From Octopus vulgaris (taxonomy: Eukaryota): DNA of 64,000 nt. The stretch spans positions 115,444,001-115,508,000 of the forward strand of contig OX597821.1 of assembly GCA_951406725.2 (NCBI GenBank). Reading direction: 5' to 3'. Made by a program: the position numbers and the translations under genes. Position 1 is the stretch's first letter, and each line of letters begins with the position of its first letter. This document shows, one piece after another, positions 23,588-54,436 of this stretch. Below the pieces are notes generated by a model that worked only from the letters and a program-made list of their open reading frames with translations, ran no database searches and was not told the DNA's origin.

Positions 23588-23772
23588 GTAAGGTTGTGAA
23601 AGTCCATACTGTTTCTCTTTTAACTTGAAACGGTTCCATTACAGCCTAAATTGCAATACATACAATTGAAATAGTCTTGAATTAAAATAAGAATTTTGTA
23701 ACTTGATTAGTTTTCACTAACCAAAATTTTGTTTTTGATTGATTTCTATCTGAATAATTACATTTCTTTCAG

Positions 23773-23866
23773 TGCTCAAGCACAAGGTCTTTTATGTGAA
23801 GAAGCTGGAAATTATGGTGACAATGTTAAATATTGTGGATACTGTATGTATCATTATAAAAAATTG
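23773..23866 (+). CDS. MLLT10: AF10/MLLT10 coding exon (end of PHD2)
   Basis: tttcag|T GCT...TTG|gtgagt. Encodes AQAQGLLCEEAGNYGDNVKYCGYCMYHYKKL. Confidence 0.95.
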
Positions 23867-26227
23867 GTGAGTCATCTTATTTTTTATGAACATATCCAAT
23901 ATTTCTTTGAAGATTTTGTTCTATTTTTGAATGTTCAATTACTTGCTTCCTCAAATAGAAGGTTGGTTTTATCATATTTGATTTGAATAAAAATGAAGGT
24001 GGTAGCAAAGTTATTCTTAAACATTGTTTAACCCTTTTGTTACCATATTTCTGTTGAACTACATTGCATTTGTTTCAATTAATTTTGAAAATAAAGAATT
24101 TGGTAAAATGTCTTGGCCATTACTAAGCTTGTAATTGGAAGATAAATTAATAAGGAATTTTAGTGCGAAATTTTAATTTAGATCACTTTATATAAAAAGT
24201 TCATATAGAAGCAAGAGCAGCCTTGGGCTGGTAGGTATCAAAGGGGTTAATAATCATATTAAGATGTTTGAAACAATCTTGATACATACAAAAATACCTT
24301 GCAAATGAACGGAGTAAATAGCTTTATATGCATGTGATGGACTCTGTTGTTGTATTCAATGCAAAGGTACAGAAGAATTTTCCTTTCTCAGGATGATCTT
24401 GTAAAATGTAGAGTAATCAAATCTCTTGGGCAGCCCACTGAGTTACTTGTTTAAAGTGGTAACAGCTTGTATGGGACCATTCACACTTTTGGTACTGCTG
24501 ACACCGACAGTTGGTGCAAGTATGACATGAGACTGATGAACAGCAGACCTCACTCGGATAGTTGTTGACTCTTGTGAGTTCCTCTGCCCTTTGATGGGTC
24601 ATGTTTTTTACCCAACAGGGTGTCCCGTAACTATCCTCTTTAGCAAGTTTGCTTGGTGAGGTTGCCAGTTTAGTCAACAAGCCAACCATGTGACAGGCTG
24701 TATTAGGTTCTATGCATGTATATGTACATATTTGGTTTGAAATATTAATTATATACAATTATACTTGAAATTAGTGTACTTTTGTATTTTCTAAAAATTC
24801 TTTTATAATTTATTTAAAAAAGTTATAAAGATCTTTTGTTAGTTTTTAGCATTAATATTGCTTTTTCCAAAATCTTGTATTACCCTCTGCTCAGAACTGC
24901 TACAAAATTAGTTTCACTGTCATAAGAAGTTTAATTCCTGTTTTTTCATATTGGCATTGTATTGGACAGGTCTGCATATTGCCTTATGTGAGGTTCTACA
25001 TTCTGAGAACAAACTTCATTATTTCCTTAGTGTTCCTTTTTTTATAGTTATTTTCTGCTATTACTGTATAGTATTTTTTCTCTCAGCACTCCTCATTCAT
25101 TCACATCTGATTTTGGAGTAGAAAATACATGTTATACATTTTTAGCTCTCCATATACAAACAAAGCTGAAGTCAGACAATAGCAGAAAAATGGTTAATCC
25201 ACAATGATGGGAAACTCTATATGCCCAATGTGTCAGTTTTCCCTCATTTTTATCCTGTGATATATTTAATGCTATATTTGGTTATTTGCAGCTAGAGAAA
25301 GAAAGTATCATTAATTAGTGTCTGTCATCATCATCATCATCATCATCATCATGTGTGTGTACACACATAAAAAATAAAATCATCATTTAATATTTATTTT
25401 CTGTGCTAGCCTAAGTTAGATGAATCAATAGGGTTCTATGAGCCAGAGGCCTGCTCTGTGCTCTGGTGCCAGACTAATTCATATTGCATTGTCTAACACT
25501 TCACTCTATAGTGGTTAGATATCAGGCAATCTGTGAAGTTGGCCAGACATGCATTAAGTGGATTTCAGATATAAACATTTAGGGGATTAAGAGATTCCAC
25601 ACGAAACCCCAACAAACTCTAAATATTGAATTATCTTTTTCTAAAATATTTGAAGTTTCTAATTTTTATATTTATACCACTCCTGCCATAGATAGGATAT
25701 TAACAGTTTGTTAGGTGAATTTAATGTTTCGTTCAAATCAGTTTTATAAATTTATGAAACTAATACTGGAGAATATGTCAGAAATATGATGAAAGAGAAA
25801 GTTTATTCAGTATTTTTGCTATATGCAATGCTCTACTTTTTAGTTTCGGTAGAAGAATTTACCCTTCATCTTTATCACTAGTTAATCTCAGGATCTCAAG
25901 TTAATCTCTAATTGTACAAGATTACCTTTTTTTTTTAATAATTAGATTTAGAATTAACAAAAATGAAGTAGCAAACAAGTTGAAGCAGTTACTTGAATGT
26001 AAAATTAAAGTAAATAGAGAATCAATGACTGACAACCAATTTCTTGCAAATTGCAGCAATTTTTAACTAACAAACACCATCCATGTGTCCGTTATCCTCT
26101 TTCTGTATACATCATCATCATATTTAATTAATTTACAGCTATTATCTTTGGTTATGCATTTTTTTAACATGGTACATTTGTATAGATTGATGCTATATTT
26201 TTTTAGACTACTTTATCATCTTTTCAG

Positions 26228-43571: not shown

Positions 43572-44445
43572 TGTGGGCATGGCTTTGTCATAAGAAGCTT
43601 GCTTCTCAACCACATCGTTCCTGGTTCAGTCCCAATGTGTGGTACCTTGGGCAAGTGTCTTCTACTATAGCCTTGGGCTGACCAAAGCCTTGTGAGTGGA
43701 TTTGGTTGACGGAAACTGAAAGAAGCCTGTCCTATAATATATATATACATATTTATGTGTGTGTATTTGTGTCAGGCCAACCAAAGCCTTGTGAGTGGAT
43801 TTCTTACACAAACTGAAAGAAGACTTGTATATATGTGTATATTTGTGTGTGTTTGTTTGTACCCCCACCATCGTTTGACAGCCGATGTTACTATGTTTAC
43901 GTCCTCGTAACATAGTTGTTTGGCAATGGACACTGATAGAATAAGTACTAGGCTTACAAAAAACAAATCCTGGAGTCAATTTGACTAAAGGCAGTGCTCC
44001 AGCATGGCCACAGTCACGTGACTGAAACAAGTAAAAGAATGAAAACTATACCATTTTAATCTCAAGCAGTGCTGAGTATCTTTGCTAGTATATATATATA
44101 TTGTATATAACACCAAGTAAATTAGGGGTTGTGGATCCAACTCACTAAGGGATAATATTTATCCAATATACTGTTGGTATAATACCCTGTTATTAATACA
44201 CAAGTGTTTTTAATTGCAATGCAATTAACTTACTTATTGTATTAAATGGGTGAAGGTAAAGAAATATTTTACCATTAATTTATATTGCAAATAAGAAAAT
44301 GAAGAAGCACATTAGTTGGTTCAACTTTAGGACATTAAAATGTTGACTTATTTATTTATCAAAACGACAACATACATATAGTATATTATTCAATGCATAT
44401 AAGATAAGAATACTAGTAGTTATTAAAAAACATGAATATAAATTA

Positions 44446-44581
44446 TTAAAATCACTTACAGCTGTTTCAGCCTATAGATAATAGTATCTCATTGTACATA
44501 TATTAGTCAAGTGTATTGAGGTGATAGGCAGTTGAAAACGAGGTACATATATATATCTCTAGGCCTCGTCAGAGATTTTAA
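44446..44581 (-). ncRNA. Type I hammerhead-like motif with long stem II insertion
   Basis: Minus strand reads ttaaaatct CTGACGA ggcctagaga...(~80 nt)...tctataggct GAAA cagctg TA agtgattttaa. Intact core, palindromic ACAGCTGT stem III, bulged stem I. Confidence 0.65.
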
Positions 44582-44631
44582 AGTACAATCATAAAAATAT
44601 AAATATAAAACAAAATACACACACATTTGAA

Positions 44632-44705
<74 letters not shown>

Positions 44706-45396
44706 CTTACATATATGGTTATAGACAATTAATTATATATACTGGAACATACATATACATCCATATCCATGAGTACATATATAATATTCAATTATTACTA
44801 ATATTAACATAAACCCTGTACAACAACATAGAAAGTGTAATTGTAAATATTATTGTTGAATTAATAAATAAATAGTTGGATAATTTAGTGACAATAAAAT
44901 TTTATATGGATTTCTACAGTATACACTTATTTGTATATATGTGGTTTTGATGATTCATCATTAAGCATGTATCAGAAAAACTGATGAATTTTAAAATTAG
45001 AAGACTGAATGTAATAAGAATGTAAACACATGCACATCGCTAGTATAGAAAGAATGCTTCTAATCTGAATGACCACACCATTCTTTACTCAATCTTGATT
45101 GAGTTAAGGCTTGAACCAGTAGACTCTAAACTCATCACAGCAACTGAACTTTACTTATTTTGAATCTTCCTATTGACTGATTTTACTGATGCAGACTATC
45201 ACCAATTTAAGAAAATAAAAAAAAAAAATTTTACCATAAAGTTTTGAAGTTGATCAAAATAGCGTAGACTTCAGTTGTTAATTTTCAGACCTTGCCATCT
45301 ACTTGTGGCTGGCTGTAAAATAAATGTCAATAAGTGTATATTTGTTTTTGTAATTAAAATCGTTCCCTTTCTGTTCAAATGTTGTTTCTCATTCAG

Positions 45397-47826: not shown

Positions 47827-48402
47827 TAGAGCAGTTGTATACTGTCAGCTTATCGTGACAGTCCTGTAAAGGGAATCACACCACTGCTATTTAGCCCTAG
47901 GAAGCATCGACGCTTCCTGTCGGCTTTGATACATTTCCTGTGTCCTTTTATGGGACTGTCACGATAAGTTGACAGTATACAACCACTCTATTGTTCCACC
48001 ACTGCTCATATCTCTCTGAGATATTTAGAAATTTAATATTTCTAATTTTGGGGATCAGTGAATAAACTTCACTGAAAATATATCTATTTGCGAAGGCTTT
48101 AGAAGCATCTTCAGCTAGCAGGCCATGCTACTCCAGACTGATGATGAGCAAGACTCAGAAATATGCATGTCTCTGGATGCAGGCCTAGCTGTTGGGGGTG
48201 CTCTTGTCTCCCCTTTGTAAATATAAGGACACAGGAAATGTGTCAAGGCCGACAGGAAGCGTCGATGCTTCCTAGGGCTAAATAGCAGTGAGTGTGATTC
48301 CCTTTACAGGACTGTCATGATAAGTTGACAGTATACAACCGCTCTATCATTCCACCACCGCTTATATCTCTCTCAGATATTTAGAAATTTAATATTTTTA
48401 AT
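47827..48402 (+). mobile_element. Hammerhead-containing partial-tandem element with inverted 5' segment (non-LTR retrozyme / PLE pLTR-like)
   Basis: Direct repeat 47953-48046 vs 48309-48402 (period 356 nt). 47827-47947 is the near-exact reverse complement of 48225-48346. The hammerhead lies inside the unit. Confidence 0.7.
48112..48191 (+). ncRNA. Type I hammerhead ribozyme (Penelope/retrozyme-like, palindromic stem III)
   Basis: Stem I TCCAGA/TCTGGA, extended by TGC/GCA, GGCC/GGCC and CAGCTA/TAGCTG. Core CTGATGA 48138-48144; stem II TGAG-caaga-CTCA; GAAA 48158-48161; near-palindrome ATATGCATGT; GTC cleavage triplet 48169-48171. Confidence 0.8.
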
Positions 48403-48430
48403 AAATGAAATTATTTTCTCTATTTAACAG

Positions 48431-52735: not shown

Positions 52736-54200
52736 GTAAGTTGTAACTTTGTTTTAGTAAAACTTCAAGCAAAATGTTTTAAAATATTTTTCTTAAAAAA
52801 TCCAGAAATTGCTGAAAAAGGAAGATACCACTTATGTTCTATTCTATAGGCATGAAAAGAAATATTTCCATATCTGAATCATATAGGAGTTGTGCATCAA
52901 GCATACACCTGACCAGGAGAACACCTTCTCCATCAATATATCGGACACAAATTGTGTTGTTAACCAGCTGGAGAAGGTGTTCTTCTGGGGTTAAAAATAT
53001 TGTAGTAACATCGTTCCGTATGGAACAGCCATGTTGAAGTGACAACAAACATGCCTTTTCAGGAATTTATAGAGATTTTAGAACTAGCTACTTTGCCAGT
53101 TTACAAATTATTTTTGTTTTGTAGAGATAGTCCAAATTTTAATTATCTATTACTATTACATTTTCATTAACTTAAATGAACATATAAATTTTCTGCCATT
53201 AAATTTTGTATTACAACCACTGCACCAAGGCACTTTTAAAGGCTTCTTATTTATGGTGAACTTTTAACAAAACTTTTAAAATTACAACAGGAAGAAAAAC
53301 TGTATCATTATTGCAACACATTGGAAAATTTAGATGAGAAATATATTCCAAAACATTAATGCACCTTGGGCTGAACTTAGTACTGGCAATATGTTCTATG
53401 TGGCAGTATGTTGTGCTGACTTTGACAAATGATTCTTCTGGTTTTGAATCATTGATTTAAAATTTTGCAGAAGGCATTGTTCAGAATGAGGAAAAGCCAT
53501 GGATTTAAAACTTCTTATACATCTAATGGCTGTGAGTGATTAACTCTCATTCAAAAGATCTTGATAATGAGACACTTTTTCAAATTGTCAAATAATGTTT
53601 ATGAAGAAGAGGAAGAAAATTTAAATGCAAATCTCATGGAAGAAACAACTCCATGAAATAGTTGGGGTTTTTTTTCCTGTGATTTAGCTTTTGCAAGAAA
53701 ATTTTAAATACTAATTTAAACATTGAAAAAAATATGGAATTTTAGCAAGCCTTGCAAACTTCACTTACATTTTACAAACACTATAAGAAGAGAAAGGAAA
53801 AATATTTTTTCCAGACTATGTTATTTAAATATGTAACATGCATCCTGTGCAGTTTGCCACAATGTGGCAGGGTGGTGGACTGCATTAAGCATGCTCTCTG
53901 AGGTATTGTATATTTATATATCCACACATTTTTGTATGTGTATTTAGATTTGAAGCTTTATCCTCTTGTCATGCTGAGTTTTCTTGTCTATGTCACCTCA
54001 TCCAAAAATAGGTTAAGGGATTTGATTAGAAGGTTAAGGAGCAATGAGGGAATAAAGTACTTGTTTTAAATGAACTAAATTTAACTAATAATATACCTTT
54101 AGAGTATGAAGCTGTAATTTTGAATTGTTATTCCATCTGTGGAGCTGTAATATTTGAATTGTTATTTCATTCTTCCTTACAAAATCTTGTTCTGTTGCAG

Positions 54201-54436
54201 TTGCTTCTCTTCTGAGTTTCTTGCATCAATTAAAAACAGAAAATCGACGACTTGAAGACTGTATTAAATCATTAACAGCTCGTCGAGACCATCTGCTTGC
54301 TTTGAATGCCCGACTTGCATTACCATTGAGTGCTCTCAACACATCACAGCTACTAGCAAAAGCTACTGGTTCTCCATGTGCTTTATTACAACAGCCCTAT
54401 CAGAATCCAGGCTGCACTGAAACAAACCTAGCTCAG
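54201..54436 (+). CDS. MLLT10: AF10/MLLT10 leucine-zipper exon
   Basis: ttgcag|TT GCT...CAG|gtaatt. Encodes ASLLSFLHQLKTENRRLEDCIKSLTARRDHLLALNARLALPL..., matching the AF10 zipper LHQLQVENRRLEEQIKNLTAKKERLQLLNAQL. Confidence 0.93.

What the first reader, a model, noticed from the sequence alone, without database searches (positions are those of the whole stretch)
44446..44581. Second hammerhead family on the minus strand with an ~80-nt insertion in stem II
Seen on the minus strand: ttaaaatct-CTGACGA-ggcctagaga(ta)...(ta)tctataggct-GAAA-cagctg-TA-agtgattttaa. The core is perfect, stem II has about 11 bp with one mismatch, stem III is the exact palindrome ACAGCTGT, and the GUA cleavage triplet is at 44459-44457. 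It shares no evident sequence with the 48112 ribozyme, so it is an independent family. The very long loop II would be missed by short-pattern searches. It is antisense to AF10, so it would not cut the pre-mRNA.
Basis: partly seen in the sequence, partly recalled or inferred. Interest (0 to 1): 0.72.

Follow-up and report, generated by a model that had tools for sequence, protein, structure and literature searches.

The report
Long-armed hammerhead of Penelope retrotransposon
This is the clipped end of a dead jumping-gene copy in a host intron, carrying a self-cutting-RNA motif whose side arm has grown into a conserved folded rod several times the usual length; the element type is known, the long arm is the new detail, and cutting is untested.

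Summary
The motif is real: the only hammerhead-descriptor hit in the window, 0 in 100 control windows. It is a type I hammerhead with a minimal palindromic helix III in the terminal repeat (pLTR) of a 5'-truncated, 5'-inverted Hydra-clade Penelope-like element. It sits in (TA)n, antisense in an AF10 intron. The 97-nt 'insertion' is neither private to this copy nor a loose loop. It is an irregular rod-like helix II shared by the lineage (82-110 nt; 1,910 intact-core pattern matches genome-wide) and kept by compensatory changes. Intact sister elements carry it in both pLTRs around a 954-aa RT/GIY-YIG ORF. Relatives outside this genome have 10-26 nt there, so the long arm looks derived. Other families here have 21, 52-63 and 124-135 nt, so it is one step in a series. 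Likely mechanism: dimer-dependent cleavage of the element's tandem transcript. No cleavage evidence was obtained, and this copy is decaying. I found no paper on such long helix II arms, but this scan has noted long-armed Hydra hammerheads on other DNA of this genome. New variant of a known kind; interest 0.4.

The parts
44106..44810 (-). 3' fragment of a Hydra-clade Penelope-like element (end of 3' UTR and pLTR, 5'-truncated, no ORF)
   Evidence: 83% identical over 744 nt to the 3' end of RT-bearing copy L062; 84% over 330 nt to the pLTR upstream of the ORF in L095, ending at 44106; shared 3' end among copies
44089..44105 (.). (TA)n target stretch at the element's 3' end
   Evidence: copies end in (TA)n at the same point
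44573..44581 (-). helix I, 5' strand
   Evidence: only the 2 core-proximal pairs are kept across subfamilies
44566..44572 (-). catalytic core CUGACGA
44469..44565 (-). 97-nt extended rod-like helix II (base 6 bp + mismatch + 5 bp, internal loop, middle helix, inner helix partly broken in this copy)
   Evidence: fold; covariation; copy-specific changes at 44498 and 44496 in the inner helix
44457..44468 (-). GAAA core, palindromic helix III ACAGCUGU (44465-44458) and A17; predicted cut between 44457 and 44456
   Evidence: dimer duplex -11.1 versus monomer hairpin +2.4 kcal/mol
44446..44456 (-). helix I, 3' strand with a 2-nt bulge
44633..44716 (.). TA microsatellite inside the element's 3' UTR, variable among copies
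44847..44929 (+). inverted 83-bp piece of the element's upstream 3' UTR (5' inversion)
   Evidence: 96% to L062 and 92% to the sense strand of L262, about 1.5 kb upstream of its hammerhead
23768..23869 (+). host gene AF10 exon upstream of the insertion
   Evidence: PDB AF-10, E 3.9e-10
54200..54370 (+). host gene AF10 exon downstream of the insertion
   Evidence: PDB AF-10, E 1.5e-8

Best explanation
This is the hammerhead motif in the terminal repeat of a truncated Hydra-clade Penelope-like retrotransposon copy; its 97-nt helix II is a lineage-wide paired rod, and in intact elements two such motifs likely pair through the ACAGCUGU palindrome and would cut the element's tandem transcript. Shown: element identity, pLTR-ORF-pLTR layout with the motif in both repeats about 5.6 kb apart, and a conserved rod. 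Inferred: a transcript spanning two pLTRs forms an 8-bp dimeric helix III and cleaves after GUA/GUC. That would give a ~5.6-kb unit RNA starting about 520 nt before the ATG and ending 12 nt after the rod. Genomic 3' ends lie 350-390 nt beyond the cut site, so the template for integration must be uncut at its 3' copy or re-ligated (inferred). The rod most likely grew in a length-tolerant arm and is selected to stay paired so that the core still folds. The window copy is solo, antisense to AF10 and decaying, so it likely does nothing to the host gene.
For: Dispersed repeat: 40 of 930 candidates scored, 88-95% identical, nearly all spanning the long arm. L062 links this subfamily to a PLE RT. L103 and L105 have the motif in both pLTRs, 5,604 and 5,593 nt apart; L102 has a 954-aa ORF with Hydra motifs. 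Rod: 65 of 69 distinct copies have folding z<-2 versus 5 of 69 downstream controls. After hand-moving gaps, 8 of 9 doubly variable pairs compensate across 6 subfamilies versus 38 of 327 background column pairs. On the unedited alignment 91.4% of cells pair versus 29-41% in slid registers. Core positions vary 5/390 versus 182/2905 in helix II and 102/1436 in the flank among 30 BLAST-chosen copies; 27 of 30 cores are intact. Dimer activity of PLE hammerheads: PMC4209133, PMC6765202.
Against: No cleavage or RNA-end data. RNAalifold on the raw alignment recovered only 8 pairs, 1 with a double change. On the unedited alignment the count of double-change pairs (5) is reached by 56 of 500 shuffles. 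The test is fitted by hand and not corrected for phylogeny. Distal helix I shows no preference for its own partner across subfamilies. Pair 10.1-11.1 is G-U in three of six subfamilies including this one, where G-C is the highly conserved form (PMC4209133). The core-competent fold lies 4-8 kcal/mol above the MFE in monomers. The window copy folds weakly (z -1.3 to -1.7). In the anole PLE the hammerhead needed protein and was dispensable for insertion in vitro (PMC11167929).
Confidence: 0.72

Rival explanations
1. The rod is a functional module in its own right, such as a binding site for the element's RT/endonuclease protein that gates cleavage or marks the RNA for retrotransposition.
For: About 22 pairs are kept with compensatory changes across subfamilies whose RTs differ by about 30%. 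After cleavage the rod would sit at the RNA's 3' end. The anole PLE hammerhead is protein-assisted (PMC11167929, passages).
Against: Length varies 82-110 nt in the lineage, the inner helix shifts register, the middle helix is rebuilt in one subfamily, and loops and bulge positions are not conserved. The sister family amplifies with a 16-nt arm. Other families have 21, 52-63 and 124-135 nt.
Confidence: 0.18
2. The motif is conserved as structure but catalytically negligible in vivo, serving as a protein-recognition or dimerisation signal only.
For: PLE hammerheads cleave poorly even as dimers (PMC4209133). Insertions end 350-390 nt past the cut site. Contigs from possible RNA runs bridge the cut site. 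No reads ended at the site in anole RNA-seq (PMC11167929).
Against: All catalytic nucleotides and the UH triplet are invariant across subfamilies at 71% mean column identity, though these copies were found by requiring the core (up to one 5'-core mismatch allowed).
Confidence: 0.08
3. A host-domesticated intronic ribozyme regulating AF10.
For: It lies in an AF10 intron with an intact core.
Against: It is antisense to the gene, one of many dispersed copies, and carries private changes that weaken the rod.
Confidence: 0.02

Closest known systems
Hydra-clade C-terminal-endonuclease Penelope-like elements, incl. Hydra-1_Obim (Craig et al. 2021, PMC8557442; seen: passages, section 11, supplement part 2 of 59 and two supplement searches)
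   Same: RWK-type, DKT and CxCX5C motifs, C-terminal GIY-YIG without CCHH, (TA)n targets, partial-tandem and inverted insertions, type I hammerhead in the pLTR.
   Different: Listed Hydra hammerheads have about 12-26 nt between the core strands (my count from File S2) versus 82-110 here. Listed elements are mostly <3 kb versus a ~5.6-kb unit with a ~2.1-kb 3' UTR and Asn-rich ORF insertions here.
Minimal type I hammerheads of metazoan PLEs (Cervera and de la Pena 2014, PMC4209133; seen: parts 1-2 of 4 and passages; supplements not opened)
   Same: Type I topology, short palindromic helix III predicted to need a dimer, weak helix I, no evident tertiary loop contact, mostly solo copies.
   Different: Helix II there is 6-8 bp; here it is a rod of about 30 bp with internal loops.
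PLE-X1_sMoe and PLE-X1_sTam hammerheads (Craig et al. File S2)
   Same: PLE hammerheads with enlarged helix/loop II (about 50-54 nt).
   Different: Plant, endonuclease-less rDNA-targeting elements; arm about half the length.
Discontinuous Clec2 hammerhead and CChMVd minus hammerhead (PMC6155905, PMC3705267; passages of reviews)
   Same: Natural hammerheads that tolerate a very long peripheral arm (helix I 150-1500 nt in Clec2; 'unusually long helix II' in CChMVd).
   Different: Clec2 is type III with the expansion in helix I of an mRNA 3' UTR; CChMVd is a viroid. Neither is a PLE pLTR.
Animal non-LTR retrozymes (bioRxiv 10.64898/2026.07.22.740005, part 1 of 5 read; PMC7229834, listing only)
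   Same: Type I hammerhead related to PLE pLTRs.
   Different: Retrozymes are short non-coding tandem units; this is the truncated end of a coding element with no short tandem unit.

Membership tests
Type I hammerhead ribozyme | CUGANGA, GAAA and UH in type I order | tested here: met
   27 of 30 subfamily copies intact
Type I hammerhead ribozyme | Helix II closing next to the core (R10.1-Y11.1) | tested here: met
   G-U here, G-C in sister subfamilies, 25 of 25 paired; base of helix II forms with P>0.5 in 55 of 69 copies, 0.77 here
Type I hammerhead ribozyme | Stable helix I | tested here: inconclusive
   2 proximal pairs kept (25/25, 22/25); distal part AT-rich with no cognate preference
Type I hammerhead ribozyme | Site-specific self-cleavage | not testable with these tools
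   only contigs were available
Minimal dimeric PLE hammerhead | Short palindromic helix III | tested here: met
   ACAGCUGU; 25 of 30 copies palindromic; duplex -11.1 kcal/mol
Minimal dimeric PLE hammerhead | Located in both pLTRs of the element | tested here: met
   L103 and L105; the window subfamily's own pLTR seen 3' of RT in L062 and its close relatives 5' of the ORF in L095, L096
Hydra clade of PLEs | RWK motif and DKT in place of DKG | tested here: met
   RWR and DKT in L102; definition. Tested on the intact sister family; L062 is truncated before these motifs
Hydra clade of PLEs | C-terminal GIY-YIG with CxCX5C linker, no CCHH, CxxC and CxH flanking E and N | tested here: met
   L102; endonuclease remnants in nearest relatives L094, L095, L096, L098; deleted in L062
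Hydra clade of PLEs | Insertion into (TA)n | tested here: met
Hydra clade of PLEs | Phylogenetic placement among the reference Hydra proteins | not tested
   the tree used own-genome, metagenome and database relatives, not the published Hydra set
Non-LTR retrozyme | Short non-coding tandem units each with a hammerhead | tested here: not met
   single motif in the window copy; tandem spacing in intact relatives is 5.6 kb around an ORF
Naiad clade | N-terminal GIY-YIG, no canonical hammerhead | tested here: not met
   endonuclease is C-terminal

The most novel reading that the evidence does not exclude
The rod is a selected protein-docking module grafted onto helix II, making these natural protein-gated hammerheads in which the element's own RT/endonuclease binds the arm to switch on cleavage and capture the RNA 3' end; thousands of such long-armed ribozymes are invisible to standard searches.
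Probability: 0.18. Interest if true: 0.72.

Novelty: new variant of a known kind. Interest (0 to 1): 0.4.

Why it matters
Rfam misses the motif, and the relaxed core search of Craig et al. allowed only 7-17 nt between core strands. Long-armed hammerheads may therefore be undercounted, and some PLEs reported without one deserve a re-scan. The genome holds a natural length series (16, 21, 52-63, 82-110, 124-135 nt) and young intact elements. That makes the open question of what PLE hammerheads do testable by arm swaps. The single copy in the window has no evident importance.

Tried and rejected
Rfam: nothing at gathering score; at E<=10 only microsatellite-driven miRNA and snoRNA noise. The coding PLE next to copy L028 first looked like the parent but has a different, shorter hammerhead and only 34-44% protein identity to this lineage, so it is a neighbour. 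A Naiad or endonuclease-less parent, suggested by L062, was rejected: L062 has an internal deletion and its nearest relatives keep a C-terminal endonuclease. Pfam did not name the RT. ADAR footprints in the rod: none; rare A>G 9/971 versus T>C 9/912 in this subfamily. Kissing-loop dimerisation through the arm: apical loops are not palindromic (inspection). Expression: no RNA holder listed; runs were contigs only, RNA status a guess, and no common end at the cut site. Two folds (L010, L012) were off-register by my coordinate error and were redone. Of 42 loci from the 50-80 and 104-134 nt pattern classes only 10 had z<-2 and 24 had at least 6 of 8 terminal pairs, so those counts include old copies and chance pairings. 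No Hydra-like ORF was found beside 7 of 7 copies of the 124-135 nt family or 2 of 2 loci of the 21-nt family. Lunse et al. (PMC5785218) was not held.

Full report
Observation. The minus strand reads helix I 5' strand, CUGACGA (44572-44566), 97 nt, GAAA, palindrome ACAGCUGU, A (44468-44457), helix I 3' strand. It is the only descriptor hit in the window; a similar descriptor found 0 hits in 100 Markov-1 control windows. Rfam misses it. AF10 exons flank it on the + strand, so it is intronic and antisense. It is unrelated to the element at 47.8-48.4 kb.

It is a repeat. A DNA search of the 2.8-Gb own genome gave 930 candidates, of which 40 were scored at 88-95% identity, nearly all across the long arm. 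The 30 fetched copies all have a 93-101 nt arm (L021 seen only). Copies share a 3' end followed by (TA)n, with a second common end about 180 nt earlier, and vary at the 5' end. The narrow subfamily is small: 24 exact matches to a tight pattern. The organism is probably an octopus; this is inferred from the nearest named protein hits (Argonauta) and earlier scan notes.

The parent element. Extending copy L003 gave L062, a decayed PLE RT upstream of the same pLTR with an inverted 3' copy at its 5' end. Searching with that RT gave 143 matches from 142 scored of 11,915 candidates, in several families. Of 20 loci fetched, L102 has an intact 954-aa ORF, and L103 and L105 show pLTR-ORF-pLTR with a long-armed hammerhead in both repeats, 5,604 and 5,593 nt apart. 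[quoted passage not shown] These are the features that define the Hydra clade in PMC8557442 section 11. L062 lacks the endonuclease through an internal deletion; its nearest relatives L094, L095, L096 and L098 keep remnants of it. The window copy is the last ~700 bp of such an element (44810-44106) plus an inverted 83-bp piece of upstream 3' UTR at 44847-44929.

The arm is a conserved rod. A pattern for the lineage gave 1,910 exact matches, control 0, mostly a young 85-nt family among the rows shown. Sixty-nine distinct copies fell into six clusters. The arm folds with z<-2 in 65 of 69 versus 5 of 69 equal-length downstream controls. Raw RNAalifold on 25 copies recovered only 8 pairs. With a named structure on the same unedited alignment, 91.4% of cells pair versus 29-41% in slid registers; 30 cells show double changes (0 of 500 shuffles) but only 5 pairs do (56 of 500). 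After moving gaps by hand, 8 of 9 doubly variable pairs compensate across six subfamilies versus 38 of 327 background pairs; this is fitted and not phylogeny-corrected. Loops, bulge positions and the inner helix register are not conserved. Among 30 BLAST-chosen copies, core positions differ at 5 of 390 cells versus 182 of 2,905 in the arm; part of the excess is subfamily polymorphism. The window copy has six differences from the majority; two break the inner helix and one improves helix I. Its arm folds weakly (z -1.3 to -1.7).

The long arm looks derived and is part of a series. Published Hydra hammerheads have about 12-26 nt between the core strands (my count). Of 55 metagenome relatives 22 had a sense-strand hit, at 10-25 nt; two longer alternative readings in loci that also have a short one were set aside as chance. 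In an RT tree of 39 rows, 15 own-genome rows form a clade (99/97). Eight carry 85-110 nt arms, one has a deleted arm and six had no motif assigned. The sister group (86/79) is a family with a 16-nt arm (midpoint root, published Hydra proteins not included). With the same helix III, the genome has 453 matches at 9-39 nt, 1,338 at 51-81 and 392 at 105-135, controls 1-2 each; these classes overlap the 1,910 in part and include chance pairings. Two of 20 further loci put 52- and 63-nt arms downstream of Hydra-like ORF remnants, so arm growth is not confined to this clade.

Mechanism. Shown: the anatomy above. Established for the class: PLE hammerheads with short palindromic helix III are inactive as monomers and weakly active as dimers (PMC4209133 parts 1-2; PMC6765202 passages). 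The anole PLE hammerhead needed the element's protein and was not required for insertion in vitro (PMC11167929 passages). Computed: monomer helix III +2.4 kcal/mol versus an 8-bp dimer duplex at -11.1; the core-competent monomer fold is 4-8 kcal/mol above the MFE. Inferred: two pLTR motifs dimerise and cut, giving a ~5.6-kb unit RNA starting about 520 nt before the ATG (L105) and ending 12 nt after the rod. Insertions end 350-390 nt past the cut, so the integrated template is uncut there or re-ligated. The rod most likely reflects growth in a tolerant arm under selection to stay paired (about 0.7); a protein-docking role is the main rival (about 0.18). Sequencing runs were contigs only and said nothing on cleavage.

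Novelty. Seven library searches found no description of PLE hammerheads with an 80-110 nt helix II or of cephalopod ones beyond Craig et al. The library lacks most subscription papers. Lunse et al. was not available, and the supplements of PMC4209133 were not opened; either could hold long-arm variants. Precedents for long arms exist (Clec2, CChMVd; PLE-X1 at about 54 nt). Earlier scan notes e1-8670224 and e1-8669291 report long-armed Hydra hammerheads elsewhere in this genome; I saw them after reaching the same reading. Verdict: new variant of a known kind, interest 0.4.

Noticed in passing
window 47828-48407 (+): A separate hammerhead (core near 48139-48173) with short helix II and a long helix I, between two ~180-bp direct repeats; already followed up as e1-9582922.
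   Followed up: partly
L255, L256, L258, L259, L260, L268, L269: An old family (70-80% identity) with a 124-135 nt helix II and the same ACAGCUGU helix III; ends of the arm are complementary, and no Hydra-like ORF was found within about 7.5 kb upstream.
   Followed up: partly
L257:1437 and 5951; rows: A family with a 21-nt helix II; two same-strand copies 4.5 kb apart with no recognisable PLE ORF between them.
   Followed up: partly
L102:1817-4681, L109:1810-4332: Own-genome Hydra-like ORFs carry long Asn-rich insertions after the RT thumb and before the linker, and units of 5.6-6.3 kb, about twice the published Hydra size.
   Followed up: no
rows, e.g. C1:28740911/28742579 and C1:56336477/56337127: Many motif pairs lie on opposite strands 0.3-2 kb apart, the inverted two-armed insertion pattern.
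   Followed up: no
L028:250-1470 (-): A different truncated PLE with C-terminal GIY-YIG and a hammerhead resembling Hydra-1_oBim in layout, directly abutting a copy of this element across a TA run.
   Followed up: partly
young 85-nt family: Rare transitions are scarcer in helix II (1 of 2,106 cells) than in the 3' flank (27 of 8,979) among 30 distinct rows; small numbers.
   Followed up: no
L036:2355-2830: An ORF fragment with histone H3 K27-K36-like words (RKARDRS is not H3; unassigned) was printed in the cut output and not examined.
   Followed up: no
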